The notes below the pieces were generated by a model. It ran no database searches and had not been told where the DNA came from. It worked only from the letters and a program-made list of their open reading frames with translations. The position numbers and the translations under genes are program-made. Positions 36,791 through 55,098 of a stretch of 64,000 nucleotides of DNA are shown here, piece after piece. How positions within the stretch are numbered: the stretch's first letter is position 1; every line of letters begins with the position of its first letter. This stretch comes from an uncultured bacterium (lineage in GTDB: Bacteria > Zhuqueibacterota > QNDG01 > CAYUAG01): contig CAZETW010000004.1 of the NCBI GenBank assembly GCA_964515295.1, forward strand, positions 4,994 through 68,993. The letters run 5' to 3'.

Positions 36791-38611
36791 ATGGTACTAG
36801 AAAAGTCAGGTAAATCATTCGTATTATTAATAATTCTTTTTGCATGCATCCCATCATTCCTTGAGGCACAGTCATTGGATCAACAGTTAAATATAGCAAG
36901 AAAACTGGAAAATCAAGGACGTATTCAGAGTGCTCTGGAACTGATGGAAACACTATATAAGAATCATCCTGAAAATATAGCTGTTTTCTCACGATATGCC
37001 AGTGTGCTGATGAAATCCCGTCATTACACTAAGCTTCTTTCTCTTATAAATGAAAAAGAAGAAAGAGGAAGGATTGATTTTGATAACAGCATATTGAAAG
37101 CAAGAGTCTTTTATCGTCAGGGCAGATACGACCAGGCAATGCAAACCTGGAATTCTATTTTAAGGGGATATCCGCAAAACAGAATTATGTATTATAAAGT
37201 TGCCTCCAGTATGATCAATGAACGACTATTAGAAGAGGCATTACAGGTTTACCTGGAGGGGAGAAAAACGTTGAATGACAATGATCTTTTCAGTTTAAAT
37301 ATTGTAAATGTTTATGAGGCCTTGTTAGAATTTGAAAAAGCAACCAAAGAGCTGTTACAATATTTAGAACATAATCCCAAACGATATGCTGTTGTGGAAG
37401 CAAAATTACACCGGTTTAAAGGTTCCGATCAGATTGTATCCACAGTTTCTGCTCTCCTTAAAAAAGCAATAAAAAAAAAGTCTCACAATAAACAATTGAA
37501 AGAATTATTGGTGAAATATTATATTGGAGCAGAATACTTTCAGGAGGGATGGGATGCAGCCCGAAAATTTTTTCCTTCTGATGAACAGGATAATGAAAAT
37601 ATACTGTTTTTATTTGCTGAACATGCTTATAAAGCAGGTTCATCCAGGATGGCGGAAAAGGCGTACAGAAAAATTTTACAGACTGATTCAATTTTTATTC
37701 CGGTTGGAAAAGTTTATTTTGGTCTGGCTCAGACCCTGGAAGTTCAGAAAAAATATGAAAAATCAATTCATTATTATGATCTGGCCTATAAAAATTTGAA
37801 AAATTTTTCCGCTGTTTTACAGTCAAGGTTGCAAAAGGCTCGTATTTTAAAAGACGCACTGAATGAGTTTGAAAAGGCAGAAAAAATGTACAGGACACTG
37901 ATCAATCAGCCTCTTAATCCACAGCAGCTGTATAATTGTTATTTTTCTTTGGGAGAATGTCTGATTGCTCAGGGAAAAATTAGCGAAGCTGAAAAAATTT
38001 ATTTAAAAACAGCTGATGAATTTTCTGAAGAAAAGAATACATACTGGATAAAAGCAATTGTATCATTGGGCAGGATGTTTTATTTCAAAGGAGAATTTGA
38101 TACATCACTAACCTATCTCAATCAGCTTTCCAGTACTGATATTAATGAGGAATATCTCAATGAAGAATCCCTGAATGACGGATTGGAATTAAGAATGCTG
38201 ATCAAACAAAATCTCAGAAATTCAGAGAAACCGTTAAGGCTTCTGGCACGGGCTGAATATCATGAGGAAAGGAAAGGATATGAAAAGGCCGTTGCGGTTC
38301 TTGATACTCTTATTGAAGGCTGTTCTGACAGTACTATGATCCGATACGGTTTATTTAAAAAAGGAACAGTTCTTATACGGTTACAGCAATATAAAGCAAG
38401 TATAAATGTTTTTAACGAATTTATAGAAAAATATCCTGCGGATCAATTGACTGATCAAGCTCTGGAAAGAACGGGCTGGGCATACCAAAAAGTCGGGAAT
38501 CCTGAAATAGCAGCTGCATACTATGAAAATCTTCTTACCAATTTCCCCCACAGCTTACTAAAGGAGGAGGTAAGAATGAGAATACGCAGTATAGAAGAAG
38601 AGGAAAAGTAA
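36791..38611 (+). CDS. Tetratricopeptide-repeat protein with signal peptide
   Basis: 606 aa; N-terminal signal, multiple TPR-like helical repeats. Confidence 0.7.
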   Translation: MVLEKSGKSFVLLIILFACIPSFLEAQSLDQQLNIARKLENQGRIQSALELMETLYKNHPENIAVFSRYASVLMKSRHYTKLLSLINEKEERGRIDFDNSILKARVFYRQGRYDQAMQTWNSILRGYPQNRIMYYKVASSMINERLLEEALQVYLEGRKTLNDNDLFSLNIVNVYEALLEFEKATKELLQYLEHNPKRYAVVEAKLHRFKGSDQIVSTVSALLKKAIKKKSHNKQLKELLVKYYIGAEYFQEGWDAARKFFPSDEQDNENILFLFAEHAYKAGSSRMAEKAYRKILQTDSIFIPVGKVYFGLAQTLEVQKKYEKSIHYYDLAYKNLKNFSAVLQSRLQKARILKDALNEFEKAEKMYRTLINQPLNPQQLYNCYFSLGECLIAQGKISEAEKIYLKTADEFSEEKNTYWIKAIVSLGRMFYFKGEFDTSLTYLNQLSSTDINEEYLNEESLNDGLELRMLIKQNLRNSEKPLRLLARAEYHEERKGYEKAVAVLDTLIEGCSDSTMIRYGLFKKGTVLIRLQQYKASINVFNEFIEKYPADQLTDQALERTGWAYQKVGNPEIAAAYYENLLTNFPHSLLKEEVRMRIRSIEEEEK

Positions 38612-39873
38612 TGATAAAAAATAAAATTAGTGTTATCATTTTATTGATAATTTGTTCGTCTCTGCGGGCTGAAAGTATTCTTATTCCCATGGATCTGGAA
38701 CAGAATAATCACCTTAAAGCGTATGGAGCTGCTTACTGGACTCTAAAACAGGGTATAGATGTACGCTGGCTTCTGAATTACAGGGGCGGTTCTTTTCTCA
38801 TAGAGTCGGTAGAAACTGTAAAACGCAGATGCAGCATACTTGGCGTTTCATTTGAAATCATTTCCGGATCTGCAGTTACTTCTATCCTGCATACAATTGA
38901 AAATAACAATATGGAGGTAATTCTTCTGGAAAAGGCGCCCTCTATTGCTGTATATGTACCGCCCAATCATGTGCCCTGGGATGATGCTGTTACGTTATCT
39001 CTCACCTATGCTGAAATACCTTATGATAAAGTCTGGGATCAGGAAATTCTGGAGGGGAATCTATCACAGTATGACTGGCTTCATCTTCACCATGAAGATT
39101 TTACAGGTCAGTATGGTAAATTTTATGGATCATATCGGAATGCACCATGGTATATACAACAGCAGCAGCTGTATGAAAAAGAGGCCAAACGACTTGGATT
39201 TTCCAAAGTATCCGAACTAAAACTTTCTGTGGCTTTGAATATTAAAGAGTATATCCGTAAAGGAGGTTTTCTTTTTGCTATGTGTTCTGCAACAGATTCT
39301 TATGATATTGCTCTGGCAGCTCAGAATACGGATATCTGCGATGTGGTTTTTGACGGAGATCCTCTGGATCCTCATTATAAAGATAAACTGGATTTTACCC
39401 AGTGTCTTGCCTTTGAAAACTTTGAGCTTATCACTCAGCCGACAATCTATGAATATTCAAATGTTGATACAACCCCCCTGGACCAGACTGCAGTACAGAC
39501 CGGAAAAGATGATTATTTTACTCTTTTTGAATTTTCTGCCAAATATGATCCTGTACCGACAATGTTAACTCAGAATCATGTTTCAGTTATTCATAATTTT
39601 ATGGGACAGACTACTGCCTATAATAAAAATGTTATTAAAAAAGAGGTGGTGATAATAGCAGAAAAAAAAGGGGCTAATGAAGTTAAATATATCCATGGAA
39701 ATCATGGAAAAGGTACTTTTACTTTTCTGGGAGGACATGATCCGGAGGATTACAGACACTTTGTAGGTGATCCGCCTACTGATCTTAATCTTCATAAAAA
39801 TTCTCCGGGATATAGATTGATCTTAAATAATATATTATTTCCGGCAGCGAAAAAGAAAAAACTGAAAACATAA
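38611..39873 (+). CDS. Secreted hypothetical protein (possible class I glutamine-amidotransferase-like/ThuA-like fold)
   Basis: 420 aa; signal peptide; GGFLFAMCSATDSYD motif resembles a nucleophile-elbow Cys; translationally coupled to upstream TPR gene (stop/start overlap). Confidence 0.45.
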   Translation: MIKNKISVIILLIICSSLRAESILIPMDLEQNNHLKAYGAAYWTLKQGIDVRWLLNYRGGSFLIESVETVKRRCSILGVSFEIISGSAVTSILHTIENNNMEVILLEKAPSIAVYVPPNHVPWDDAVTLSLTYAEIPYDKVWDQEILEGNLSQYDWLHLHHEDFTGQYGKFYGSYRNAPWYIQQQQLYEKEAKRLGFSKVSELKLSVALNIKEYIRKGGFLFAMCSATDSYDIALAAQNTDICDVVFDGDPLDPHYKDKLDFTQCLAFENFELITQPTIYEYSNVDTTPLDQTAVQTGKDDYFTLFEFSAKYDPVPTMLTQNHVSVIHNFMGQTTAYNKNVIKKEVVIIAEKKGANEVKYIHGNHGKGTFTFLGGHDPEDYRHFVGDPPTDLNLHKNSPGYRLILNNILFPAAKKKKLKT

Positions 39874-39911: not shown

Positions 39912-41294
39912 ATGTCAGATAAAAAATTAGATGAAATATATAAGCGGCTTTTCCGTATTGGGGCTGCAATTGAGAAAACAGGAGGAAACACACTGCACAG
40001 CGGGAACCTTTCTCTGCGCGATCCTGATGATCCGGATATATTTTATATTACGGCCAGTGGTTCACAATGCGGAGCTTTGAACCCTGCTGATATTGTTCAG
40101 CTTAGATTTTCCCGGAGGAGCAGCAATGATAACCGTGCGTCTACTGAAACTCCAACTCACAGAAAGGTACTTAATATAAAAGGAGTCAAGGCAGTAGTAC
40201 ACGCACATTGTTTTAACAGTACACTTATATCTTTTGATACTGGAGAGCAGCAGCTTTTTCTGCAGTATCTGGGTAAAGACCGAAAAGGAAGAGATGAATT
40301 TCTGTTCCTGCCTGTAGATCTTTATGGTTCTTTTTGCATTGGGAAAGTGCCAGTGAACAGTTACATTGAACCGGTAGGATCTGCAGAAATGGAGGAGAGA
40401 ATCCCTCACTATCTGGCTGAGAATACATGTACCATTGTTCAGACACATGGTCCCTTTATTAGGGAAGATTCGCCTGAGAAGGCATTTCATTTTCTCTCAA
40501 TACTGGACATTAGTGCAGAGATGGTACTCTGTCTCAGGCGCCGGGGTATAGATGTAATTAAGATCCAAAAAATATTAAAGTTTAAAGGCAGGGCAACATT
40601 TTTCCCCGTACAGCCTCATCGATTTCAGGATATTGACTTTACCTGCTGTGATATTAAAGAAAAGCCAGTTATTCAGGATTTCAAGCAAAGACTTATATAT
40701 AATTTTAATCATCGACTGAGCGGTTTTGCAACCGGGTCCATGAGTCTGAAAGTATCGGATACTGACATGATATACTGTCCTCTGTCTGCTCTTCCTGAAG
40801 GATTCAGTATTCCTTTGCTTAAAAAATCCATAAAGTCTGATTCAGAAGAAAATTTTGATCTAAGGATACATAAAATGATCTATCAGAATACTGATCAGAC
40901 CAGCTGCATGATTACAATCAGTCCCCGGGCAGTAGCTGAAGGAATGGCAGTTCTAGCTGAAAAATATGGTATAGAGGTCCTGTGCGGTAATGGAGCTATG
41001 ATCTCTTACACGAACAGAGGACATCCTGTAATTACTGCTGTTGATGCAGAAGCCAGGTACTGCAGTCCTGAACTGGGAGTGGTTGATATAACGCAGCTTT
41101 CTGATCTGAGGTCTGATAATCCTATTCTGGACATGCTGAGAGAGTATAAGGGGTGTTGTGTAGTGGCAAACTATGGTGTTATTTCTACCAGCCGGAACGG
41201 TCTGGAACAGGCTGCCTGTAAAGCTTTTTTGGCGGAGCGTATAGCTGGTTTCAGACAGGAAGCAGGGATCACAATCAGATCAATACAGCTGTAA
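39912..41294 (+). CDS. Tandem class II aldolase/adducin-fold protein (N-terminal domain intact, C-terminal domain degenerate)
   Basis: 460 aa; domain 1 has SGNLSLR, Glu-His (STETPTHR), VVHAHC and VQTHG metal-ligand motifs; domain 2 keeps the fold signature (GSMSLKV, ANYGVI) but lacks the His ligands. Confidence 0.6.
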   Translation: MSDKKLDEIYKRLFRIGAAIEKTGGNTLHSGNLSLRDPDDPDIFYITASGSQCGALNPADIVQLRFSRRSSNDNRASTETPTHRKVLNIKGVKAVVHAHCFNSTLISFDTGEQQLFLQYLGKDRKGRDEFLFLPVDLYGSFCIGKVPVNSYIEPVGSAEMEERIPHYLAENTCTIVQTHGPFIREDSPEKAFHFLSILDISAEMVLCLRRRGIDVIKIQKILKFKGRATFFPVQPHRFQDIDFTCCDIKEKPVIQDFKQRLIYNFNHRLSGFATGSMSLKVSDTDMIYCPLSALPEGFSIPLLKKSIKSDSEENFDLRIHKMIYQNTDQTSCMITISPRAVAEGMAVLAEKYGIEVLCGNGAMISYTNRGHPVITAVDAEARYCSPELGVVDITQLSDLRSDNPILDMLREYKGCCVVANYGVISTSRNGLEQAACKAFLAERIAGFRQEAGITIRSIQL

Positions 41295-41351
41295 ATTTAC
41301 ATTCATGTATTGATGTTATGTAATTCAAAGAACTTAAAGGAGGTAACAGAT

Positions 41352-41909
41352 ATGACTGATTTTAAGAAAATTCCAATCGACTCTGCTCACAGATTAATAA
41401 ATCATGGCCCCACTGTTCTAATTTCTACCAGGGATCAAGAAGGGAATTACAACCTTGCCCCCATAGCCTGGAACACACCGGCAGGAAAGAATCCCCCTAC
41501 ATTTCTGACAGTCATAGGGAAAAGCCATAAAACCAATGAAAACATAATAGAAACCAATGAATTTATAGTTTGTATACCTCATAAAAAGCAGACAGAAATG
41601 CTTCTCAAAACAGGTAAAATTTCCGGTTATGAAGTGAATAAATTTAATGAATTTAATATTGATACAATCAGGGCTGATAGGGTAGGAGCTCTGGTACCGG
41701 TTGACTGCATAGGCTACAGTGAATGTACGGTGCGAAAGGTGGTGAAGTTAGAAAAAGTAAATATATTTATTGCTTCAGTTATACAAGCCTGGGCACAAAA
41801 GGATGTTTTTACCGACAGATTATTAGTTGAAAAAGAGGCGGCAAAAACAATACATCATTTGGGTGGGCATCTATTTTCTGTTCCGGATTCAGATATTGTT
41901 AATCTGTAA
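41352..41909 (+). CDS. Flavin reductase-like (FMN-binding split-barrel) protein
   Basis: AGGAGG SD 9 nt upstream of this ATG; LINHGPTVLISTRDQEGNYNLAPIAW typical flavin reductase domain. Confidence 0.7.
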   Translation: MTDFKKIPIDSAHRLINHGPTVLISTRDQEGNYNLAPIAWNTPAGKNPPTFLTVIGKSHKTNENIIETNEFIVCIPHKKQTEMLLKTGKISGYEVNKFNEFNIDTIRADRVGALVPVDCIGYSECTVRKVVKLEKVNIFIASVIQAWAQKDVFTDRLLVEKEAAKTIHHLGGHLFSVPDSDIVNL

Positions 41910-41924
41910 ATGTAGTGACTTATA

Positions 41925-42332
41925 TTAAAATTGAAGGTCCATAGCCCAGGTGGGGCAGGCAGTAATACATAATTCACAGGCCAGACATTGCGTGTCATCA
42001 AATTCAATTTTTCTGTTTACAGGATTTACTTTTAAGGCATCAGTAGGGCATACTCCCACACATAAACCGCAATGGGTGCACCTTTTTTTATCACGTACAA
42101 CATCTTTTTGAAGCGGCTTAATACTGAGTCCCAGTTTTTTCAGATAATCAAGACCGGATTTATAATCATTATTATTACCTTTTATCTCAAGAACAAGCAC
42201 TCCTTCTTCCTTTGGAGTTATAGCTGCTTTTAAAATATTAAATTCCAGATTATAATCTTTTACCAGCTGACATGCTATGGGCTGATCAACTAATGTTGGC
42301 GGAAATTTTACAACTATGCGTTTTGTAATCAT
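41925..42332 (-). CDS. NIL-domain ferredoxin with two [4Fe-4S] clusters
   Basis: 135 aa; N-terminal NIL domain, C-terminal CTHCGLCVGVCP and CLACELCITACP cluster motifs. Confidence 0.8.
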   Translation of the reverse strand: MITKRIVVKFPPTLVDQPIACQLVKDYNLEFNILKAAITPKEEGVLVLEIKGNNNDYKSGLDYLKKLGLSIKPLQKDVVRDKKRCTHCGLCVGVCPTDALKVNPVNRKIEFDDTQCLACELCITACPTWAMDLQF

Positions 42333-42381
42333 TAAGAACCCTTTTATATTTTTATAAATAAATCTGTAAATATAATTTCAT

Positions 42382-43551
42382 TTACTCTTTTTCTGAACCA
42401 GGAATGTAAGCAACCGGATTGGTTAACAAAAACTCTCCCTTTTTTATCCATTCTTTTAAGGATTCGGCGATTTCCACTGCTTTAGGATAGCTTGATAACG
42501 ATGCTGTTTTTATTCTTTTTTTATTTATTGTTATTTCTCCTGATTTTAGTTCTGCGTATGATACTGTTCCCAAAATTTTGTTTTTCCCCTGTGGATAATC
42601 ACTCCCGTAGTCCACAACCGGTGCGTAGATATCTTCATCTCTGACTGCTGTATACCTGGCCATTTGTTCGTTAATTATTGGTATGGGAATACCGATGCTC
42701 ACCATTAAGGTTGCTCCGTATCCTGACATGGACAGTCCCACAAGCCAGGAAGGTTTCATTTTCTTTAAATTACCGATGACTGCCAAAGTACCTGCCGGAA
42801 CCCGTGGGACCTGGCTTTTTGTCCTGGGTACATCGGGTTTATGCTGGGTCCCGGGCCATGCAATGTAACCTCGGTCACCTCCCAGGAAAATTTTGGTTCC
42901 GATCCCTATAGTCTGATATAGGGGATCATTCAGCAGGGGAGAGAGCTGTCCTGCTGAACAATAGGTAGCATTATTCATATTCGGTTTCAGCATACCCATA
43001 TATGTATAAATATTCTTGTCTGTACGGTTTACTGCCACGTTATAATTCTGATATGCATTCCTGGGATTAAATAACACAGCATCATTGACATTTTTAATAT
43101 TAATAATTGTTTCATATTTTCTCCCGGGATAGCAGTCAGTTCCATAAGAGTATGCACGGAGTTCTATATCTTTACCTGAAACAAAATCTTCAATAACATG
43201 TCCGCCGCCATATCTGAACTCACCGGGATGTATTTTATTTTTCGGATCATCTTCAGTAAGCTGAGAACAGCCGAGTAAAATGTCTGCTGCAGCAAATCCG
43301 GTATAAGCAGGAACATTATTCAGATAGCAAATTCCTCCGCCCAGTTTAATTTTTGGTTTTGACTGTGCAATGTTAAAATAAGCTCCACTGGAACACATGG
43401 GTCCGAATGTACCTGTAGTAACAACATCCACCTCCTCTGCTGCTGCCTTTGTACCGTTTTCCTTTACAATAGAAATCATTTCCTCAGCAGTAACAACAAC
43501 AGCTTCTTTTTTTTTGATTTTCTGGTTGATTTCTGCAATAGTCTTTGCCAT
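42382..43551 (-). CDS. DUF39 family protein (L-aspartate-semialdehyde sulfurtransferase-like; homocysteine biosynthesis), lacking CBS domains
   Basis: 389 aa; DUF39 family recalled from sequence features; paired with NIL-ferredoxin as in methanogen MA1821/MA1822. Confidence 0.6.
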   Translation of the reverse strand: MAKTIAEINQKIKKKEAVVVTAEEMISIVKENGTKAAAEEVDVVTTGTFGPMCSSGAYFNIAQSKPKIKLGGGICYLNNVPAYTGFAAADILLGCSQLTEDDPKNKIHPGEFRYGGGHVIEDFVSGKDIELRAYSYGTDCYPGRKYETIINIKNVNDAVLFNPRNAYQNYNVAVNRTDKNIYTYMGMLKPNMNNATYCSAGQLSPLLNDPLYQTIGIGTKIFLGGDRGYIAWPGTQHKPDVPRTKSQVPRVPAGTLAVIGNLKKMKPSWLVGLSMSGYGATLMVSIGIPIPIINEQMARYTAVRDEDIYAPVVDYGSDYPQGKNKILGTVSYAELKSGEITINKKRIKTASLSSYPKAVEIAESLKEWIKKGEFLLTNPVAYIPGSEKE

Positions 43552-43725: not shown

Positions 43726-46700
43726 CTATAGAACCTGTTTACGCAGAGTCTGCTGCATTCTTTTAATTCTTTCAAACAGGTCTCTTCTTTCCGGTGTTCG
43801 TTTTAATACTTCATTCCATTGAAAAACAGCCTTTTTATATTCCCCCCTGTTTGCATAAATTACTCCCAGATTTTCAGCAACTGTAAGATTATCAGGCTGT
43901 ACACGACGGACTTTATCATAGTAATATTCTGATTTATCTAAATTACCGATCTTGAAATAAGCATCTCCAAGATAATGCAGGGCATTTAAATTTGTGGGAT
44001 CTTCATTCAGAACTTTTTTAATCGCAATGATAGCTTTTTCATATGATCCCTGTTTATAAAACCATTTTCCGGATTTTAAAAAGCGCTGAATCCTTTTTTC
44101 TCTGATCCTTTTTTCTTCTTCCGGGTTTGGTTTTTTTTCTTCAGGTACTCTTTTTCTTTTTTGGACATCCAGGCCTTCTGACATCTTAAGAAAACTGGTT
44201 TCTTCCTCCTCTTGTTTATCTTTACCATATTCAATGTCTTCATGTTGTTCTTCATCCAGCAATTCATCTGCTGTAAAAGAAGCTATCTCTTCTTCTACAT
44301 CCTGTTCGTCAAAGACATCAGAGTAATATATATCTTTATGATCAAGTGTTTCTTCAATTTCCTCAAGTTCATCAATTTCTTCTTCACTTTCTTGCGGAAT
44401 TTCTTTTACAATATCCTGTTTTTGTTCTTCTTTTTCTTCAAGAGATTCAGCCGGCGCTTCCTCTTCTGATTCAGGAGTGATAATGTCTTCATCTTCAGAA
44501 CTGCCTATAAAATCATTTAAAATATGATCGGTTTTTTCGTGTATTTCACTTTCATGTTCAGAAATAACTTCTTCAGGTTCTTCAGAGATAACCTCTTCGA
44601 AATCTTTTTCTTCTTCTTTGATTACTTTTCTGTCTTCATCCTCAACGTCAACAGACTGCTCAACGATTGTAGGTTTATTAACAATTTTTCCGTCCAAGGT
44701 AACAAAAGGAGTACCTGGTTTCTTTAGAGCTTTGCGTCCGCCTTTTTCAATAAAAGCCAAACGTAATTCTTTGGTATTTAATTTGCTTTTTACTAATTCA
44801 TCGTAAATTCTTTTTTCATCAATTTCTACATTATCATATTTATCACTCTTTAATTCCTCACTAATTCTTTTTGCTCCATAATCAGGATTATTTTTAATAA
44901 TGTCGATAATTTTGGCTCTGTCTTCAATGCTTATATGTTTATCTTCAATTTTTGTAATTTTCCTTCCGTCATATAATCCTTCTTTTCCCTTTTTATTGTA
45001 TTTCTTTCTGTATTTATAATATGTTGAGGTAGAAACATTTTCCCTTTTACATGCTTCTTTAACACTTAATCCTTTTTTATCAACTAATTTCATCAACCGT
45101 AATCTGTGATTAAATAATACATCCTCAGCTTTCAATTTTTCTCTTATAGCCACCAGGGTAATATCATCAGTTTGCGCAAAACCTTCGGAAAAGATGATTA
45201 TTTCATCTCTGATCTTATTTACAAATGGTTCTACATTTAAGTCTCCATATTCTCTTATGACCGAAAGAAACCGTTCATCACCAAAGCGTTCTCTGTTGTG
45301 ATTCATGGCTTCGGTAATACCATCAGTATAGACGATCAGCGAATCTTCGGGTCTTAAATGCAGAGTGTCAGATTCAATTGTTTTATTAAACAGAGAATCA
45401 TCGGGCAGTTTAATTCCTATGGGAAATCCTTTCGGATTCAGGTAGTAACTTTTTTTGGTAGATCCTCTATAGAGAATCATGGGATTATGTCCGGCACTGG
45501 CGTAATTTATAGATCTTTTCTTGGAATCAAGAATTACATAAAATATAGTAACAAACATTCCGCGTTTCATATCTTTCATGACAAAACTGTTTACTTTAGC
45601 CAGTACATCAGCAGCATTTTTATTGCCGCGCGCTTCAGTACGAAGTGCTGTTCGGATCATGGTCATTACCAGGGAACCAGGAACTCCTTTACCTGAAACG
45701 TCTGCAACCACAATACCCAGAGTATCATTATCTACCTCCACAAAATCAAAGTAATCTCCGCCCACTTCTTTTGCTGCTTCATAGTATGTAGATATCTCAT
45801 ATCCTTCAATATCCGGAAAAGAAGCCGGGAGCAGTGTTTGCTGTATATCCTGGGCAACCTGTACTTCTTTTTGCAGTCTTTCCTGTTCTGCTAAATGTTC
45901 CTGAGTTTCACGAAATTTTTCTGTAATATCATTAAAAGCTTGAGCTATTTCGCCCACTTCATCTGAATTATCGAATTCCATCACATCTTCTGCTTCTCCC
46001 CGTCCCAAAGCTTTAACCCAGTGAGATAATTTTTTAAAAGGACTCATAGTAGTATATACAAGTACAAAAACTCCTATGCAGCCGCTTACTAATATAACCA
46101 AAGATCTCCAGAAAATACTTTTTCTCTTTTGTGCAACGTTACCGTCAACAAAGCTTTTATTCAACATGATATGGACTGAGCCTAAAATATACCTGTTATC
46201 ATCAATTTCAAATTCAGCGGGTTTATTTATGTCATATACACTGCCCACACCAGCATAGTCATATACATATAAACTATCAGATTTTTTTCTGTATTTTCGT
46301 GGGAGTGAAAATGGTTTTAACAGGTTCTCCATATTCACTGCACCCTGAATACTGCCAGTGCTGTCTACAATAATTATTTCTGAAACCAGTGGAGTATGAT
46401 TATGCTGTAATTCAGCTGAAATTCTTGCTAATTCCCAGGTTTCTTCATTAGCAAGAAATTCGGCGGAATTCTGCACTACAGTTGAAGCCAGTTTTTGTCC
46501 TTCTTCAAGATAGGTGTTAAATACTTTTTTCCCTTGATAAATATAATTCCAGATCGAGAATATTAGTATTAAAAAGGTTAATATACCAGAGGCAATCAAC
46601 GAATATCGGGTTTTCATGGAAAAGCTCAACTCTGGTATGGAAAATTTTTTGGAAACATCTAATTCACGAATTTTTGTCAGACGTAATTCATTTCCCTCTA

Positions 46701-47082
46701 CTGTTTTTCTATAGTCGATCTCATCAATGACCTTGCGCATTATAAATATTCCCAAACCGCCTTTTTTTCCGATATTCACATATCTGTCAAGGTCAGGATT
46801 TTTTACTTTTCTGGGATCAAAAGTTTTCCCCTGATCAATGAGAGAAACAGTAACATTCTGTTCTCTTATTATCATCCTGACTGTTATAAAACCTTCCCAG
46901 TCACGATAAGCATGACGGATTATATTTGTACCTGCTTCATCTATGGCCATTTTAAAGGCATTGATGATGTTTTCACTGACACCATATTTTCTGCCTACTT
47001 TGGTGATAAAATCACGCATTTCGCCCAGATTTCCAATATCAGCGGGTACTTTTAATTCTTTTTTCTTTACTTTTTTAAACAT
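43726..47082 (-). CDS. Multidomain signalling protein: RsbW-like GHKL serine kinase + 2 TM with extracytoplasmic sensor + HAMP + PP2C (RsbU/SpoIIE) phosphatase + transposase-type HTH + acidic tract + C-terminal TPRs
   Basis: 1118 aa; DEAGTNIIRHAY and GGLGIFIMRKVIDEI (HATPase_c_2); two TM helices; GDYFDF...TDGITEA...DDITLVAIR (PP2C-SIG); LSVKEACKRENVSTSTYYKYRKKY and PDYGAKRISEEL (IS481/IS3 OrfA-like HTH); E/D-rich region; 3 TPRs. Confidence 0.8.
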   Translation of the reverse strand: MFKKVKKKELKVPADIGNLGEMRDFITKVGRKYGVSENIINAFKMAIDEAGTNIIRHAYRDWEGFITVRMIIREQNVTVSLIDQGKTFDPRKVKNPDLDRYVNIGKKGGLGIFIMRKVIDEIDYRKTVEGNELRLTKIRELDVSKKFSIPELSFSMKTRYSLIASGILTFLILIFSIWNYIYQGKKVFNTYLEEGQKLASTVVQNSAEFLANEETWELARISAELQHNHTPLVSEIIIVDSTGSIQGAVNMENLLKPFSLPRKYRKKSDSLYVYDYAGVGSVYDINKPAEFEIDDNRYILGSVHIMLNKSFVDGNVAQKRKSIFWRSLVILVSGCIGVFVLVYTTMSPFKKLSHWVKALGRGEAEDVMEFDNSDEVGEIAQAFNDITEKFRETQEHLAEQERLQKEVQVAQDIQQTLLPASFPDIEGYEISTYYEAAKEVGGDYFDFVEVDNDTLGIVVADVSGKGVPGSLVMTMIRTALRTEARGNKNAADVLAKVNSFVMKDMKRGMFVTIFYVILDSKKRSINYASAGHNPMILYRGSTKKSYYLNPKGFPIGIKLPDDSLFNKTIESDTLHLRPEDSLIVYTDGITEAMNHNRERFGDERFLSVIREYGDLNVEPFVNKIRDEIIIFSEGFAQTDDITLVAIREKLKAEDVLFNHRLRLMKLVDKKGLSVKEACKRENVSTSTYYKYRKKYNKKGKEGLYDGRKITKIEDKHISIEDRAKIIDIIKNNPDYGAKRISEELKSDKYDNVEIDEKRIYDELVKSKLNTKELRLAFIEKGGRKALKKPGTPFVTLDGKIVNKPTIVEQSVDVEDEDRKVIKEEEKDFEEVISEEPEEVISEHESEIHEKTDHILNDFIGSSEDEDIITPESEEEAPAESLEEKEEQKQDIVKEIPQESEEEIDELEEIEETLDHKDIYYSDVFDEQDVEEEIASFTADELLDEEQHEDIEYGKDKQEEEETSFLKMSEGLDVQKRKRVPEEKKPNPEEEKRIREKRIQRFLKSGKWFYKQGSYEKAIIAIKKVLNEDPTNLNALHYLGDAYFKIGNLDKSEYYYDKVRRVQPDNLTVAENLGVIYANRGEYKKAVFQWNEVLKRTPERRDLFERIKRMQQTLRKQVL

Positions 47083-49008: not shown

Positions 49009-52000
49009 CTATTTTACCACAGCAATTTTTGTTTTTACTATATTGTCGTCTGTATCCATAACCAATATATATACACCGTTAAGTACTGTGTTTCCATTAT
49101 CATTGGTGCCGTTCCATTCAACCTGATTACTCCCCCTTGAATGAAGTCCTTTTCTTCCTTCCGGATCAGTACTGCTGAAAGATTCTGACCAGACTAATTC
49201 TCCGATTAAATTATAAATGCTGAAATTTACATTTGTATCCTTGTCTAAATAGTAAACAATGGTTGTAGTTTTTTTACCCGGTGAACCGAATGGATTGGGA
49301 AAATTCAGTAGATATGCTTTATCGTCTGTTCCCACATCTTCACTTGATATCACCTGTTTTTGCCAGTTGCTCTTTAACTCAAATCTATCTCCTGAAGGAG
49401 ATAACACCGGCAGTGAAACATAAGGGACATACTCATCAACAGCTGTAATATAGGTGCTGTCAGGCATTTCCAGCATAAAATTCACTGTCTTTTCTGTTGT
49501 ATGCATGTCTGCAAGGAGAGCGATTTTCAGTGTATCCTGAGTCTTAATCGGGTTCATATGATCAATTAAAATGTTAACCGGATTTTCGGCAGGTATTTGT
49601 GATGAAGACAGTGTAGCCAGACAGCTGTCTTTATTATAATAATATCTTCCATTCTTCTTTATTAATTTGCATAGTTTGATTTTCTTATAAATAGAAGAAG
49701 GATTTAATGGCTGGTGAGAAAAGTCTAGAAGATTAAATTTTATTTTTGTCAGTAATACTCCATTCGCACCTGCTTCACCTCTGTTGATCATTTCAAATCC
49801 TGTTAGCCAGACATTATTTTGCCCGCTTATTACTTGACTTGAAATAGAATCCGGCTGGTCTAATTCTGTAACGGAAAGCCAGGTTCCCACTGTTGTTACC
49901 CCGATATCTGCACTTACTTTACTTGCATATGCTTCTTCAGATGTATTCTGATCCCAGGGAATTTTTGAAATATAAGCTGAGATAGTGGCAGTTTCGCCTG
50001 TGGAGTAGGGAGGTGCTTTAATCATCCAGTTTGTTTTTTCCTGTGTCGCATAATGAACCGGAGATTCTTTTGTTGTATATCCTTCAGGTAATTGTTCCAG
50101 AGTAATCATAGCAGTACCAAGAGTATCAGCTTCTCCTTTGTTTTCTATCTCTGCATACAGGATAAATTCCTGAGAGGGAGAAACAGATTTGTCATCAATG
50201 TTAAGGTTCAATGCCAGATCAGCTTTTTTTACAGTTTGTATCTCAATACCTTTCTGTTCTGCAGATATTATTACATCCTCTTGCTGAAGTGCATCGTAGC
50301 CGGATGCATTTACATAAATAGTTCTTTTATCTGTTGCTCCTTTGGGCGCTCTGATTTGCCAGGTTACTTCATTTGATATCACTTTTTTATCCAGGTTATC
50401 CGAGGTGGTATATCCGGTTGGCAATGTTATGGAGGCAGTGATATCCCTTACATAATTCCAGGTCAGACTTGCTCTTACTACAAAATACTGATCGGATGAT
50501 ACTTTTTGATTAACTGCTCCGGGCGGTGAGGCTATACCCAATGAACTGGTAAGAAAACTTTTATGAGTTATTACAGATATTTTTTCTGTCTTTTTTTCAA
50601 TTTTTGCAACTTGTCCGGTGTTTCTGGCTAAAGGAGGTTTATACAGAGTAACATTTATTGTTTGCCAGTCTGTGGCAATATTGGGCGATTTGATTTCCCA
50701 GGTTGCAGGTGAATTAAGAGTAATGGAATTATTAACTGATCCGCTGAGTGTATAGGGAGAAGGAAGAGTTATTCTTATTTTTCCGGTAGTATCAATAGCA
50801 CCAGATCCATGATTTTCCAGATGTGCGGTGAGGATAAAAACCTGGTTGGTTGTAAATTCTCCTATGGGATTGCTTAATTTCAGTTTTATTGAGAGGTCTG
50901 CCGGTTTCTGAATATAAGCAAAAGCTACAGGATCTAAAGCCGGACCAACAGGTACCTCTGAATCATCCTTTTTGGCACTTGTTATAGAAGCAGTAAATTG
51001 TTCTCCGGAAATATTTTCCACTGCTGATGCGGTAAGGTAAAATATTACAGAATCTCTTTGGGATGGTGACAGAGAAAGTATGGTTAAATCTGAATTTTCT
51101 ATATTTGATATTTCGCTTTCCAAATGAACATTAATATTCTTGACTGCATGACCTAATCCGTTTTCTACTGATACAATAACTTTAAATTCCTGGTTTGTAT
51201 CCAAATACGCATTGCCTCCCTCGGTTGTATTATAAGCATCGATCACAGTTGATACAATTCTAAAGGCCGGATTGGACTGCACTGATATTAAGGCTGATGC
51301 ATTATTCTGTTTTATGTTTCCGGTGTTTTTTTCAACTCCCTGGATATTGGTTTTAACTTCTACCTCTCCGCCGTATAGTCCGGTTAGTTTAACTTTGTAT
51401 ACTAATGTATCCCTTGTTCCGCTTTTCAGGCTGATATTTTTGGTGGTACATTCTGTAATATAATCTGTGAGTTTTAGATCTTCATGCCAGAAACTGATAT
51501 TTGATTTCAGGGTATCTATCTGAATTTCTGCATAATAATCTATAGGGGCCTGACTTTGCCCGTTAGCAAGTACAACTTTAACAAACCAGGGTTCAGTCTG
51601 ACCTCCCATTACTTTATTTGTGGAAGTGATAATTTTTTCAATGGACAGAGTTCCTGGCTGTTGTACATGTACTTTGGTTGTGTCATCAACAGGATTTTTA
51701 CTTGTCAGAGAATCATTCTTATTATCAGTCCATCCGCCGCCGCTTACTGTAAAGATTTCATTGTACAGATAGGTTTGAAAGGCATTACCTGTTACTGTGA
51801 TAACAGAAGTTTCACCGCCCTCAAGAGGATCAACAGGGATACGGGTAGGGAAATTAAACCAGGGATGTTCTGAAGTTAAATGTAATCCGATGTCATGTAA
51901 TCCATCTCCGCCTGTATTGGCTATTTTAATGTTCATGTCAAATTCCTGATTGATATTAACATAGGGTGCATTGGGAGCCATATTTGTAAGTTCGAGAATT

Positions 52001-55000
52001 TTTAATTCCGCTTCTTCTTCAATAATTACTGTTCCCCATCCTGCATTATCAGTGTTGTCAGAAACCTGTAATTCTGTATTTATTTCAGTACCTGAAACAG
52101 AGGCGTTTATTTTACATTCTCCAGTGCTGTTTTCTCCTGTATGAATAACCTGATAGTTCAGACTGTCGATAGTTTCACCTTCAAGAATCCATCCTCCTTT
52201 AGCAAGAGAATCCGGTCGTATTACTGCCCAATTATCTCCAATACTGAAAGAAAGAGAAGTGTTTACAGCAGCCGAAACAGAATCAATCAACACACTGCTT
52301 TCACCCCGGTTACTCAGTACTACTGCTATTGACCAGTTTGTGTCCTGAGCAACTGTTACTTCATTCTGGGAGGTGATGATTTCATTGACAATCAAATCAG
52401 CCGGCGTCTGTACATTAACTGAAGTCCAGGCTTGATCAGTTAATTGTTCACCAGCGATAGTGGAAGTATATAAAAATCCCTGTATGAGTGCTGAGCCTTT
52501 ATCCGCACCGGTACTGTCTATGGTTACAACTAATGTATCTGTAGAATAACCGGATAATATTTTTGTACCACTATTCTTAAATGTATCAGGAATTGATATT
52601 TGATAATCATTTTTCAGTATCCCGTCAGTTTTTATATTTAACCCGATACTGTCAAGAGTAACATTGTTGCTGCTCAGGTTTTCCACAGTCATAATAAGGA
52701 ACCAGTCTTTGTTTTGATTTGCAGTTATATGCTGTACAAGAGTAGAGTAATCATTTTTTACCGGTTTAAAATCCAAAATTCTCAGCCCCGGTGCATTTAT
52801 AACATTAAAACTATTAGAAACTCCACTGGGTGCAGGTTCCTCTGCACCTGTTTCTGTAACTGTAATAACATTACCTGAGTATTGGGTGTTCACTGTAACG
52901 CTTCCATTCCATATACCGTTAACAAAATTCGAACTTTTTTGCGGTTGTATAGTAGCGGAAGAATCAGTGATATCAACAGTACCGGTAAAATTGGATTTGA
53001 CATTATCATTTTCATCATAGGTAGTGATATTTAACGGAAACGGCTGACCTGTTACCTGAGTATTGATCAAGCCTATTTCAAAATAAGACACTTGTCCGGG
53101 AATAACTATAATGGAACCGGTATGAGCTGATATATCAGTTTGTGGTTTATGTGTCTTTATATTGCCGCTTCCCGGTTTACTGGGGATATAGGTGATGTCA
53201 GATTTATTTGAGATGTTAACTGCAGGAGTTAATCCCTGGGAACTCCAATCTACAATTTCAGTTCCTCTGAAGTTTCCATAGCCGTCATATCCTACAGAAT
53301 AAAGATCCAGACTTTCTCCTACACTTAAGGTGTCGTTAATTATTTCTTCTCCTTCATGAATAGGAACATTTTTTATCTTAAGCTGAGACAGAGTTCCTGG
53401 ATTTACTAAAATATCACTCACAACAGAAGAAATATCGTTTACCTGGCCTTTCAGCGCAACTCCGCTTTCTGCTTTTACTAATATCTGATTAGCCTGCCCT
53501 GAACCGTTTATCACCTGAATATCATTGAAAATCGGAGACGACCCATTGGGAGAATTCCCTCCCAGATTATTACAGGTTACAGTAACCATACCTGACCAAT
53601 TATTCTGATATTTATCCTGTGCATCAGTTAGTGTTAAGGGAAATGGTATTCCTGCCGTTTGAATTGAGCCGCAATTCAAGGCAAATGTGTCTATGGAAGC
53701 ATACGTGACCGTAATACTGCTGCTGGTCTTACTTATTTCTCCATCAGTAACAGTTACGGTTTGTTGGGGGGAATTATATAAAATAAAAGATGAACCGAAG
53801 AATACTTTTTGTCCGTTATTCCATCCGGTTCCGTTATCAACCGGCAGTGTTGCCGGATATGGTTCTTTATCTGAAGAACTCCAGATAATAATTCCTTCAT
53901 AATCGGTTTTTTTATTTTTATAGCTGTCAAATGCAGTTACCGTAACCCCGTAGGAGAAAGGCTGTCCGGCACGCCTGGTTTCAGGTAATCCTTCTATAGT
54001 AAAATCACCAAGTTCGCCAGGGAGGACCAGGATTGAATGACTGGTTCTGCTTACTGTCCCGTCAATTACTTTGATTGTCTGGGAGGGTGCATTAAATAAA
54101 AGAAAAGAAGAACCACTAAACGTTTTGCTTCCATTTACCCAGCCTGTTCTGTCATCTGTAGGTAATGCTGCAGGGTAAGGAGTGCCGTCAGAAGAATTCC
54201 AGATAACAATTCCGGAATAATTAGTTTTTAAATTATTATATTCATCAAAAGCAGAGACGGTAACATTACTATTGAATTGCTGACCTGCAATAGTACTGGA
54301 TGGAACTCCGCTTAACTCAAATCTGTCAAGATCTGTTGCATATACAGTAATCGGATCTGATGTTTCGATGACGCTCCCGTCCTGAACTGTAACAGTTTGT
54401 TCAGTGGTATTGTAGAGTTTAAATGAAGTTCCCGGAAAAGTCTTTTTTCCCCCACTCCATCCGGTTCCGTCATCTTCCGGAAGATCAGCAGGATATGGAA
54501 TACCGTCACTGGATACCCAGTCCACTGTACCCTGGTAGTCATTTTTGACATTTCCATAAAAATCATAAGCAGTAATTTCAATATCATTGTTAAAAACAGA
54601 ACCTGCTTCAACGCTGCCGGGGATTCCGCTTATCTTAAAACTATCAAGCGCTGCCGGTTCAACTGTTACATTATATGTAGTACTGGTTATAGAGCCATCT
54701 GATACAGAAAGCCATTGAGTACCTGCTGTACATAATTTGAATAGGGCACCACTGAATTTTTTTGATCCGTTATTCCATTCACTGCCGTCATCAGTGGGAA
54801 GTAAGACTTTTTCGTTAGTATCAGATGTATGCCAGGTGACAGTACCGTTATATGTATCTTCAATTTGCCCGTATTGATTATAGGCAGTCACTTCAATACT
54901 GTCAGGGAACTGCTGGCCTGCTTGAACAGTAGCTGGTACATTTGTTAGCTCCAATCTGGCTAAAGTCCCGGCATTTGTTTCAGGTGCTTTTAAAGGGTGA

Positions 55001-55098
55001 TTAACTTGTGCCCCCAACGTTTTATTGACATAAAAATTAAGTGTCACCCCCGAAAGGAATACTGCGGTCAAAAAGATTTTTTTCAAGGATATATTCAT
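49009..55098 (-). CDS. Giant secreted repeat protein with T9SS (Por) C-terminal sorting domain
   Basis: 2029 aa; signal peptide; at least 4.5 tandem ~105-aa repeats near N-terminus; C-terminal ~90 aa NFPNPFGSPG...IYNLIGELV...GVYILVM...KIAVVK matches T9SS CTD. Confidence 0.85.
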   Translation of the reverse strand: MNISLKKIFLTAVFLSGVTLNFYVNKTLGAQVNHPLKAPETNAGTLARLELTNVPATVQAGQQFPDSIEVTAYNQYGQIEDTYNGTVTWHTSDTNEKVLLPTDDGSEWNNGSKKFSGALFKLCTAGTQWLSVSDGSITSTTYNVTVEPAALDSFKISGIPGSVEAGSVFNNDIEITAYDFYGNVKNDYQGTVDWVSSDGIPYPADLPEDDGTGWSGGKKTFPGTSFKLYNTTEQTVTVQDGSVIETSDPITVYATDLDRFELSGVPSSTIAGQQFNSNVTVSAFDEYNNLKTNYSGIVIWNSSDGTPYPAALPTDDRTGWVNGSKTFSGSSFLLFNAPSQTIKVIDGTVSRTSHSILVLPGELGDFTIEGLPETRRAGQPFSYGVTVTAFDSYKNKKTDYEGIIIWSSSDKEPYPATLPVDNGTGWNNGQKVFFGSSFILYNSPQQTVTVTDGEISKTSSSITVTYASIDTFALNCGSIQTAGIPFPLTLTDAQDKYQNNWSGMVTVTCNNLGGNSPNGSSPIFNDIQVINGSGQANQILVKAESGVALKGQVNDISSVVSDILVNPGTLSQLKIKNVPIHEGEEIINDTLSVGESLDLYSVGYDGYGNFRGTEIVDWSSQGLTPAVNISNKSDITYIPSKPGSGNIKTHKPQTDISAHTGSIIVIPGQVSYFEIGLINTQVTGQPFPLNITTYDENDNVKSNFTGTVDITDSSATIQPQKSSNFVNGIWNGSVTVNTQYSGNVITVTETGAEEPAPSGVSNSFNVINAPGLRILDFKPVKNDYSTLVQHITANQNKDWFLIMTVENLSSNNVTLDSIGLNIKTDGILKNDYQISIPDTFKNSGTKILSGYSTDTLVVTIDSTGADKGSALIQGFLYTSTIAGEQLTDQAWTSVNVQTPADLIVNEIITSQNEVTVAQDTNWSIAVVLSNRGESSVLIDSVSAAVNTSLSFSIGDNWAVIRPDSLAKGGWILEGETIDSLNYQVIHTGENSTGECKINASVSGTEINTELQVSDNTDNAGWGTVIIEEEAELKILELTNMAPNAPYVNINQEFDMNIKIANTGGDGLHDIGLHLTSEHPWFNFPTRIPVDPLEGGETSVITVTGNAFQTYLYNEIFTVSGGGWTDNKNDSLTSKNPVDDTTKVHVQQPGTLSIEKIITSTNKVMGGQTEPWFVKVVLANGQSQAPIDYYAEIQIDTLKSNISFWHEDLKLTDYITECTTKNISLKSGTRDTLVYKVKLTGLYGGEVEVKTNIQGVEKNTGNIKQNNASALISVQSNPAFRIVSTVIDAYNTTEGGNAYLDTNQEFKVIVSVENGLGHAVKNINVHLESEISNIENSDLTILSLSPSQRDSVIFYLTASAVENISGEQFTASITSAKKDDSEVPVGPALDPVAFAYIQKPADLSIKLKLSNPIGEFTTNQVFILTAHLENHGSGAIDTTGKIRITLPSPYTLSGSVNNSITLNSPATWEIKSPNIATDWQTINVTLYKPPLARNTGQVAKIEKKTEKISVITHKSFLTSSLGIASPPGAVNQKVSSDQYFVVRASLTWNYVRDITASITLPTGYTTSDNLDKKVISNEVTWQIRAPKGATDKRTIYVNASGYDALQQEDVIISAEQKGIEIQTVKKADLALNLNIDDKSVSPSQEFILYAEIENKGEADTLGTAMITLEQLPEGYTTKESPVHYATQEKTNWMIKAPPYSTGETATISAYISKIPWDQNTSEEAYASKVSADIGVTTVGTWLSVTELDQPDSISSQVISGQNNVWLTGFEMINRGEAGANGVLLTKIKFNLLDFSHQPLNPSSIYKKIKLCKLIKKNGRYYYNKDSCLATLSSSQIPAENPVNILIDHMNPIKTQDTLKIALLADMHTTEKTVNFMLEMPDSTYITAVDEYVPYVSLPVLSPSGDRFELKSNWQKQVISSEDVGTDDKAYLLNFPNPFGSPGKKTTTIVYYLDKDTNVNFSIYNLIGELVWSESFSSTDPEGRKGLHSRGSNQVEWNGTNDNGNTVLNGVYILVMDTDDNIVKTKIAVVK
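53570..54966 (-). repeat. Tandem ~310-bp coding repeats (~105-aa units) inside the giant T9SS cargo gene
   Basis: Protein-level repeats LxxFxIxGxPxxxxAGQxF...VTAxDxYGNxKxxYxGxVxWxSSD...LPxDxGTGWxxGxKxFxGxSFxLxNxxxQTVTVxDG...TSxxITV observed four to five times. Confidence 0.7.

What the first reader, a model, noticed from the sequence alone, without database searches (positions are those of the whole stretch)
39912..41909. Tandem class II aldolase-fold protein with one catalytically degenerate domain, co-transcribed with a flavin reductase
The 460-aa protein contains two class II aldolase/adducin-like domains. The first retains the Glu/His metal-binding set (TETPTHR, VVHAHC, QTHG). The second keeps the fold signatures but has lost the His ligands (ITISPRAV in place of HxH), the pseudoenzyme-partner arrangement seen in adducins. 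A flavin reductase-like gene with a strong SD follows 57 nt downstream. The pair converges on the DUF39/ferredoxin pair. The substrate is unknown. Class II aldolase-fold enzymes include MtnB of methionine salvage, so a link to sulfur amino-acid metabolism is conceivable but speculative.
Basis: partly seen in the sequence, partly recalled or inferred. Interest (0 to 1): 0.5.

Follow-up and report, generated by a model that had tools for sequence, protein, structure and literature searches.

The report
Two-domain sugar-phosphate aldolase, half-dead duplicate
The gene encodes a fused pair of class II aldolase domains, one catalytically intact and one without its metal site; it belongs to an unstudied family that in other uncultured bacteria sits directly after a tungsten-type aldehyde oxidoreductase in fucose/rhamnose-breakdown clusters, and the flavin reductase and homocysteine genes beside it here are only positional neighbours.

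Summary

The tandem form defines a conserved, uncharacterised family found only in MAGs of many phyla. In 65 of 69 genome loci an aldehyde:ferredoxin oxidoreductase (AOR) gene lies directly upstream (median gap about 9 nt). FGGY kinase, RhaA or FucI isomerase, LutABC and rhamnosidase or fucosidase genes are often nearby.

The best reading is a DHAP-dependent fuculose/rhamnulose-1-phosphate aldolase that yields lactaldehyde for AOR and then LutABC. This is inferred from context, not assayed.

The window's clade has lost the adjacent AOR. Relatives carry TPR-421aa-FlavRed with no aldolase, or ALD-LutABC-FlavRed. The aldolase is therefore a cassette inserted ahead of the flavin reductase, not its partner. 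The DUF39/ferredoxin pair is absent in one of the two 63%-identical relatives. No link to methionine salvage was found.

Both halves are under purifying selection (dN/dS about 0.2). This is a new variant of a known enzyme kind, of moderate interest.

The parts
39912..41294 (+). Gene for the 460-aa tandem class II aldolase (stop codon included)
   Evidence: ORF. 359 homologues. Full-length AF2 model has pLDDT 91.8 and pTM 0.92. dN/dS is 0.16-0.21 within the clade.
39912..40607 (+). N-terminal catalytic-type Aldolase_II domain (res 1-232). It carries a family-specific beta-hairpin insertion at about res 110-132.
   Evidence: PF00596 E 9.8e-24. Sequence matches to FucA-type PDB chains. Foldseek matches to 6vop and 2fk5, E about 3e-10; that table does not say which half of the query aligned. 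The insertion shows as an alignment gap against 6vop/6voq and as strands 118-122 and 128-132 in the model.
40146..40148 (+). Codon GAA for Glu79, the predicted general acid/base and fourth metal ligand
   Evidence: Invariant in A1. Aligns with the conserved Glu of 2fk5 and 2irp. Codon read.
40200..40208 (+). Codons CAC GCA CAT for His97-Ala-His99, two of the three metal-binding His
   Evidence: Invariant H97 and H99. Aligns with VHAH/VHTH of solved structures. Codons read.
40446..40448 (+). Codon CAT for His179, the third metal-binding His
   Evidence: Invariant H179-G180. Aligns with the GHG motif of 2fk5. Codon read.
40608..41291 (+). C-terminal degenerate Aldolase_II-fold domain (res 233-460). 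The His ligand positions are occupied by about T335, S337 and Y421. It has its own invariant set: K280, H320, C332, D378, E380, K413, C415, C416, E432, Q433, E442, R443.
41352..41909 (+). Flavin reductase-like gene (185 aa) with SD AAGGAGG at 41337-41343. It is a positional neighbour, not part of the aldolase system.
   Evidence: PF01613 E 1.7e-22. Closest PDB chain is 1eje, an FMN-binding protein. Relatives lie next to the 421-aa gene without any aldolase.
36791..39873 (+). TPR protein (606 aa) plus a secreted 420-aa protein with no Pfam family. With the flavin reductase they form the lineage's syntenic backbone, into which the aldolase is inserted.

Best explanation
The 460-aa protein belongs to a conserved but uncharacterised family of tandem class II (metal-dependent, DHAP-forming) aldolases.

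Inferred mechanism: the N-terminal domain is the catalyst. It has a Glu79/His97/His99/His179 metal site and a G31-N32/G50 phosphate site. It most likely cleaves a 6-deoxy-ketohexose 1-phosphate (L-fuculose-1-P and/or L-rhamnulose-1-P) into DHAP plus L-lactaldehyde.

The C-terminal domain is a diverged duplicate of the same fold without a metal site. It is equally conserved. Inferred role: it takes the place of the neighbouring subunit that completes the active site in homotetrameric FucA/RhaD, and in most members it may also contact the partner enzyme.

In nearly all other members the gene lies immediately downstream of, on the same strand as and nearly abutting, a tungsten-type aldehyde:ferredoxin oxidoreductase gene. 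That enzyme would oxidise the lactaldehyde to lactate. LutABC would then take lactate to pyruvate.

In the window's lineage the AOR gene is no longer adjacent. The aldolase, with or without LutABC, sits as a cassette between a 421-aa secreted-protein gene and a flavin reductase-like gene. The flavin reductase and the convergent DUF39/NIL-ferredoxin homocysteine genes are bystanders.
For: Architecture and catalytic residues.

Family context:
- 69 genome loci from Ignavibacteriota, Bacteroidota, KSB1, Spirochaetes, Planctomycetota, Desulfobacterales, SAR324, Acidobacteriota, Eubacteriales and others.
- AOR (AFOR_N+AFOR_C; closest solved structures are the AOR entries 9g7j and 1aor, E 3e-96 and 2e-94) lies directly upstream on the same strand in 62 loci by clustering, plus L018, L057 and L077 by tblastn. 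The median gap is about 9 nt. The same holds in four metagenome places.
- Other neighbours: FGGY kinase in 23 loci, LutA in 12, LutB in 12, LutC in 8, RhaA in 8, FucI in 6, GH106 rhamnosidase in 4, and an alpha-L-fucosidase in L003.
- The tandem gene is the only Aldolase_II gene within 8 kb in all loci but one.

Window clade:
- It nests inside the AOR-linked diversity, sister to loci L040/L032/L015, two of which (L040, L015) carry AOR-ALD-FucI-LutABC-FGGY.
- L050 carries ALD-LutA-LutB-LutC-FlavRed.
- L079-L081 carry 421aa-FlavRed with no aldolase.
- dN/dS is about 0.2 in both halves.

Precedent: RhaEW fuses a class II rhamnulose-1-P aldolase to a lactaldehyde dehydrogenase, and lldEFG occurs in rha regulons (PMC3870299).
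Against: No enzyme assay exists for any member, and every member comes from a MAG.

All NCBIfam equivalog models score below their cut-offs (best PRK08660, 108 vs 203 bits; FucA models 20-26 bits). Substrate assignment therefore rests on gene context only.

The family occurs with both FucI and RhaA, whose products differ in C4 configuration, so specificity is unresolved.

The 64-kb window holds no AOR, FGGY, FucI, RhaA or Lut gene (Pfam survey).

The window clade has replaced 16 positions that are at least 90% conserved elsewhere, several next to E79 and H179: W71, G72, S80, I82, G178. Its substrate may have shifted.

Confidence: 0.6

Rival explanations
1. The window-clade protein has been re-purposed. 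After losing its AOR partner it acts on a different substrate (another ketose-1-phosphate or aldehyde). Alternatively it performs another reaction of the fold: epimerase, dehydratase, decarboxylase or Fe(II) oxygenase.
For: 16 positions conserved in the AOR-linked clade are replaced in every window-clade sequence. These include W71, G72, S80 and I82 next to E79, and G178 next to H179. No sugar-catabolic gene lies in the window. The fold supports many chemistries: OtnC, MtnB, AraD, POD, TqaM and NovR all appear among the structural matches.
Against: All four metal/acid residues and the phosphate-site G-N/G are retained. One clade member still carries LutABC directly after the aldolase, which points to lactaldehyde/lactate chemistry. 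The clade's closest outgroups lie in fucose clusters.
Confidence: 0.2
2. One reading: the aldolase-fold protein and the flavin reductase form a functional two-gene unit, possibly tied to sulfur amino-acid metabolism through MtnB-like chemistry and the neighbouring DUF39/ferredoxin pair.
For: Same strand, 57-nt gap, strong SD, and no terminator-like site between the genes. The ALD-FlavRed adjacency is kept in four relatives at 63-85% identity. A real HcyBio/NIL-Fer4 pair lies next door.
Against: The reductase lies directly after the 421-aa gene, without any aldolase, in L079-L081. It is separated from the aldolase by LutABC in L050. It sits in unrelated contexts at about 50% identity. No PF01613 gene appears in the 60-plus AOR-linked loci (blastp). 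DUF39 is absent from L008/L010. MtnB models score below their cut-offs.
Confidence: 0.05
3. The gene is a decaying remnant of a lost AOR-ALD-LutABC cassette and has no current function.
For: AOR and LutABC are missing next to it. The cassette is variably present in the lineage.
Against: The reading frame is intact, every family-invariant residue is kept, and dN/dS is 0.16-0.23 across four clade members in both halves.
Confidence: 0.05

Closest known systems
L-fuculose-1-phosphate aldolase FucA (class II, PF00596; e.g. PDB 1fua, 2fk5)
   Different: FucA is a single domain of about 215 aa that forms a homotetramer (general knowledge). Here two domains are fused and one lacks the metal site. Sequence identity is about 24% or less. 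FucA equivalog models score only 20-26 bits against cut-offs of 250-264. The N domain carries a family-specific hairpin insertion.
RhaEW (YuxG): rhamnulose-1-P aldolase fused to lactaldehyde dehydrogenase (Rodionova et al. 2013, PMC3870299)
   Same: A class II aldolase physically coupled to the enzyme that removes lactaldehyde, located in rha loci, with lactate oxidation genes in the same regulon.
   Different: In RhaEW the fused partner is an NAD-dependent dehydrogenase domain. Here the fused partner is a dead aldolase domain. The aldehyde oxidiser is a separate ferredoxin-dependent tungsten-type AOR, encoded just upstream in most members and not in this window.
Adducin head domain and other non-catalytic Aldolase_II folds
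   Same: An Aldolase_II fold that has lost its metal ligands.
   Different: From general knowledge, adducin has one non-catalytic domain and no fused catalytic twin. The analogy is loose.
MtnB (methylthioribulose-1-P dehydratase) and DHAP-shunt aldolases
   Same: Same superfamily. The N half gives weak matches (TIGR03328, 50.6 bits).
   Different: The score is far below the cut-off of 137. No mtnA/mtnK-type genes are enriched in any of the 69 neighbourhoods. AOR, FGGY, RhaA, FucI and Lut are enriched instead.

Membership tests
Class II aldolase/adducin domain (PF00596), N half | Profile match above the Pfam gathering score | tested here: met
   84.7 bits vs 22.2, res 12-205.
Class II aldolase/adducin domain (PF00596), N half | Metal site (three His) plus catalytic Glu, and the G-N / G phosphate motif | tested here: met
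   E79, H97, H99, H179, G31, N32 and G50 are invariant and align with the same motifs in 2fk5, 2irp and 6vop. Metal binding itself was not measured.
Class II aldolase/adducin domain (PF00596), C half | Profile match above the gathering score | tested here: not met
   The window C half scores 19.3 bits, below 22.2. Homologous C halves reach E 1.3e-7.
Class II aldolase/adducin domain (PF00596), C half | Aldolase_II three-dimensional fold | tested here: met
Class II aldolase/adducin domain (PF00596), C half | Three His metal ligands | tested here: not met
   No His in res 331-339 or 415-427. Register taken from Pfam coordinates and model secondary structure.
FucA / RhaD / MtnB / OtnC / AraD equivalogs (NCBIfam) | Score above the curated equivalog cut-off | tested here: not met
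   Best hit PRK08660, 108 vs 203 bits. OtnC 56 vs 250. MtnB 50.6 vs 137. FucA 20-26 vs 250-264. No RhaD model matched.
AOR-linked tandem class II aldolase family (unnamed; defined here) | Protein of about 460-490 aa with a catalytic N domain, a degenerate C domain and the family-invariant residues | tested here: met
   52-85% identity over 95-100% of the length to 120 listed homologues. 74 invariant columns.
AOR-linked tandem class II aldolase family (unnamed; defined here) | AFOR_N+AFOR_C gene immediately upstream on the same strand | tested here: not met
   Present in 65 of 69 genome loci. Absent from the window, L005-L010 and L050.
DHAP-dependent aldolase activity on fuculose/rhamnulose-1-P | Measured cleavage to DHAP + lactaldehyde | not testable with these tools
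   Inferred only from gene context.
Intramolecular pseudo-dimer mimicking adjacent FucA subunits | The N-C interface superposes on the subunit interface of the FucA tetramer | not testable with these tools
   pTM 0.92 indicates a fixed domain arrangement. Coordinates could not be superposed.
Flavin reductase-like (PF01613), neighbour gene | Profile match above the gathering score | tested here: met
   80.6 bits vs 27. Closest PDB chains are 1eje, 3e4v and flavoredoxin 3bnk.

The most novel reading that the evidence does not exclude
The tandem aldolase and the tungsten-type AOR form a dedicated two-enzyme module, possibly a physical complex in which the degenerate C domain docks AOR and passes on toxic lactaldehyde. 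This module would define an undescribed ferredoxin-reducing route for fucose/rhamnose breakdown: aldolase, then AOR, then LutABC. The route would be widespread in uncultured anaerobes of at least ten phyla. The window's lineage would be a natural 'AOR-less' variant whose active-site-proximal substitutions mark a change of partner or substrate.
Probability: 0.3. Interest if true: 0.65.

Novelty: new variant of a known kind. Interest (0 to 1): 0.45.

Why it matters
Deoxy-sugars (fucose, rhamnose) from algal and plant polysaccharides are major carbon sources in anoxic sediments. The known routes dispose of lactaldehyde by NAD-linked oxidation or by reduction to propanediol.

A tightly coupled aldolase-AOR-LutABC route would send those electrons to ferredoxin instead. 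That changes the predicted energy yield and H2 production for many uncultured lineages. These genes are currently auto-annotated as 'L-fuculose-phosphate aldolase' or 'class II aldolase/adducin family protein', with no note of the duplication.

The fused active/dead domain pair is also a clean natural case of a homo-oligomeric enzyme turned into a pseudo-hetero-oligomer.

For this window specifically, the practical result is a correction: neither the flavin reductase nor the homocysteine genes should be used to infer the aldolase's function.

Tried and rejected
- BLASTP and hhalign of the N half against the C half found no similarity. The duplication is visible only through the Pfam profile and the fold.
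- A PDB sequence search with a C-half profile found nothing.
- phmmer of the C half against 1.84 billion representatives gave 36 hits. The full-length ones match in their C-terminal half like the tandem family, and most others are short fragments. No free-standing relatives were evident. Two long multi-stretch hits, P0133 and P0135, were not examined.
- tblastn of AOR, FGGY, FucI, LutA/B and fucosidase against the window gave no hits.
- Literature searches combining AOR or tungsten with lactaldehyde, fucose or rhamnose returned 0 papers. One search returned only unrelated genome descriptions. One search was rejected for syntax.
- The idea that invariant C332/C415/C416 form a metal or Fe-S site was considered. 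It was set aside because these residues occupy the strand-core positions that hold small residues in the N half (A94, C173/T174). It was not tested structurally.
- The organism's taxonomy was not resolved. Cluster look-ups carry no names, and the closest genome records are titled only 'bacterium'.

Full report
**1. Observation**

The ORF at 39912..41294 (+) encodes 460 aa.

N half:
- Pfam places Aldolase_II (PF00596) on residues 12-205, E 9.8e-24.
- E79, H97, H99 and H179, plus G31-N32 and G50, are invariant in an alignment of 26 homologues.
- They align with the Glu / His-x-His / Gly-His-Gly and Gly-Asn motifs of the solved FucA-type proteins 2fk5, 2irp and 6vop.

C half (233-460):
- It matches PF00596 only weakly: E 1.1e-3, 19.3 bits, below the 22.2 cut-off.
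- BLASTP and hhalign detect no similarity to the N half.
- All 16 C halves of homologues hit PF00596, best E 1.3e-7.
- The full-length model is confident: pLDDT 91.8, pTM 0.92.
- By Pfam coordinates and model secondary structure, the positions equivalent to the three His ligands fall in SCMITISPR (331-339) and CCVVANYGVISTS (415-427). Neither stretch contains a His. The Glu position is probably D316.

Neighbours:
- The flavin reductase-like gene (PF01613) starts at ATG 41352, 57 nt after the aldolase stop, behind AAGGAGG.
- A NIL+4Fe-4S ferredoxin gene and an HcyBio/DUF39 gene converge on it.

**2. The family**

- A search of 5.8 billion proteins gave 359 hits. The 120 best listed are about 454-488 aa and cover at least 95% of the query.
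- A C-half-only search of 1.84 billion cluster representatives found just 36 proteins. Most are tandem-length proteins matching in their C-terminal half, or short fragments.
- The degenerate domain is thus specific to this tandem family and is not a free-standing protein.
- No member has a solved structure.
- All 69 genome loci come from MAGs: Ignavibacteriota, Bacteroidota, KSB1, Spirochaetes, Planctomycetota, Desulfobacterales, SAR324, Acidobacteriota, Eubacteriales, Hyphomicrobiales and others.

**3. Gene neighbourhood**

I clustered all ORFs within 8 kb of the gene in 70 loci and annotated cluster representatives with Pfam. One partner dominates: an aldehyde:ferredoxin oxidoreductase (AFOR_N+AFOR_C, about 670 aa). 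Its closest solved structures are the AOR entries 9g7j and 1aor (E 3e-96 and 2e-94).
- It lies immediately upstream on the same strand in 62 loci by clustering.
- tblastn adds L018, L057 and L077.
- The median AOR-to-aldolase gap is about 9 nt.
- Four independent metagenome places show the same pair.

Further recurrent neighbours:
- FGGY kinase: 23 loci
- LutA: 12, LutB: 12, LutC: 8
- L-rhamnose isomerase RhaA: 8
- L-fucose isomerase: 6
- GH106 alpha-L-rhamnosidase: 4
- a xylose-isomerase-like TIM barrel in Ignavibacteria
- an alpha-L-fucosidase in L003

Only one locus has another Aldolase_II gene within 8 kb. In these clusters the tandem protein therefore fills the aldolase step of the phosphorylated fucose/rhamnose pathways.

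Established chemistry of FucA/RhaD yields DHAP plus L-lactaldehyde. An AOR would oxidise the aldehyde to lactate, and LutABC would take lactate to pyruvate.

The closest published analogue is RhaEW, in which a class II aldolase is fused to an NAD-dependent lactaldehyde dehydrogenase and lldEFG joins the regulon (PMC3870299). Searches for any paper linking AOR or tungsten enzymes with lactaldehyde, fucose or rhamnose returned nothing.

**4. The window's own clade**

The window protein and its relatives at 62-85% identity (P0002-P0006, L010, L050) lack the upstream AOR. The 64-kb window contains only housekeeping genes besides this locus, among them MnmE, YidC, LptFG, MutS2, DnaG, RecJ, SecA, TopA, RNase R, Pta, DnaJ and GrpE. 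It has no AOR, FGGY, FucI or Lut gene.

Three observations settle the status of the flavin reductase:
- In L079-L081, its 72%-identical orthologue directly follows the 421-aa gene with a 38-nt gap and no aldolase.
- In L050, LutA-LutB-LutC lie between the aldolase and the reductase.
- Its relatives at about 50% identity sit in unrelated contexts.

The lineage's backbone is therefore TPR-421aa-FlavRed. The aldolase, with or without LutABC, is a cassette inserted into it.

The DUF39/NIL-ferredoxin pair is replaced by MacB/FtsX genes in L008/L010.

A midpoint-rooted NJ tree nests the window clade inside the AOR-linked diversity. It is sister to L040/L032/L015; L040 and L015 carry AOR-ALD-FucI-LutABC-FGGY. 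The adjacent AOR was therefore lost.

The gene is not decaying. dN/dS is 0.16-0.23 in both halves, and all family invariants are kept.

The clade has, however, replaced 16 positions that are at least 90% conserved elsewhere. Eleven are in the N half, and several flank E79 and H179. This leaves room for a changed substrate or partner.

**5. Mechanism**

Shown:
- two aldolase folds
- an intact metal/phosphate motif set in the first domain only
- purifying selection on both halves
- family-wide coupling to AOR and deoxy-sugar/lactate genes
- no conserved coupling to the flavin reductase or to DUF39

Inferred:
- DHAP-dependent cleavage of fuculose/rhamnulose-1-P
- the C domain replacing the neighbouring subunit that completes FucA-type active sites
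- AOR oxidising the lactaldehyde

Not testable here: the geometry of the N-C interface, any AOR contact, and the substrate of the AOR-less window clade.

**6. Verdict**

The protein is a new variant of a known enzyme kind. The interesting biology, an aldolase-AOR module in uncultured anaerobes, lies mostly outside this window. The window itself holds a derived member without that partner. Interest is moderate (0.45).

Noticed in passing
window 41925-43551 (-): A NIL+2x[4Fe-4S] ferredoxin gene and an HcyBio/DUF39 gene (PF01837, E 9e-151). From general knowledge, this is the MA1822/MA1821-type pair implicated in homocysteine synthesis in anaerobes. The pair is conserved in L005, L007 and L050 but absent from L008/L010.
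   Followed up: partly
window 38611-39873 (+): A 420-aa protein with a signal-peptide-like N terminus and no Pfam or NCBIfam match. Its start overlaps the stop of the upstream 606-aa TPR gene (ATGA at 38611). It is 84% identical to its L010/L050 orthologues, which is more conserved than either neighbour (63-72%).
   Followed up: no
related loci L011-L078 (e.g. L040 7959-11359): The AOR and tandem-aldolase genes are nearly abutting (median gap about 9 nt, several overlaps). This suggests translational coupling or a complex. The AORs are about 60-75 aa longer than the solved AOR 1aor (605 aa).
   Followed up: partly
window res 110-132 of the aldolase (nt ~40239-40307): A family-specific, highly conserved beta-hairpin insertion (FDTxExQLFLQYLGxDxKGREEFLF) in the catalytic domain. 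It is absent from YgbL/FucA structures in the alignments.
   Followed up: no
window 49009-55098 (-): A 2029-aa ORF with no Pfam domain, conserved in L005-L007, downstream of a 636-aa TPR protein and a 1118-aa HATPase/HAMP/SpoIIE-type protein with a long acidic tail (43726-47082).
   Followed up: no
window 57500-58777 and 59810-61558 (-): Two ORFs of 425 and 582 aa without Pfam matches flank a weak PilM-like gene (58838-59788).
   Followed up: no
L014, L039, L041, L044, L045 (Spirochaetes/SAR324 loci): An enoyl-CoA hydratase (ECH_1) gene recurs next to the AOR-aldolase pair. Its role in a deoxy-sugar pathway is unexplained.
   Followed up: no
L068 (Hyphomicrobiales MAG): The only genome locus outside the window clade with a full upstream flank but no AOR next to the tandem aldolase.
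   Followed up: no
P0133 (836 aa) and P0135 (2665 aa): Long proteins with 8-10 separate matches to res 107-171 of the C half. They may be repeat proteins or low-complexity artefacts.
   Followed up: no
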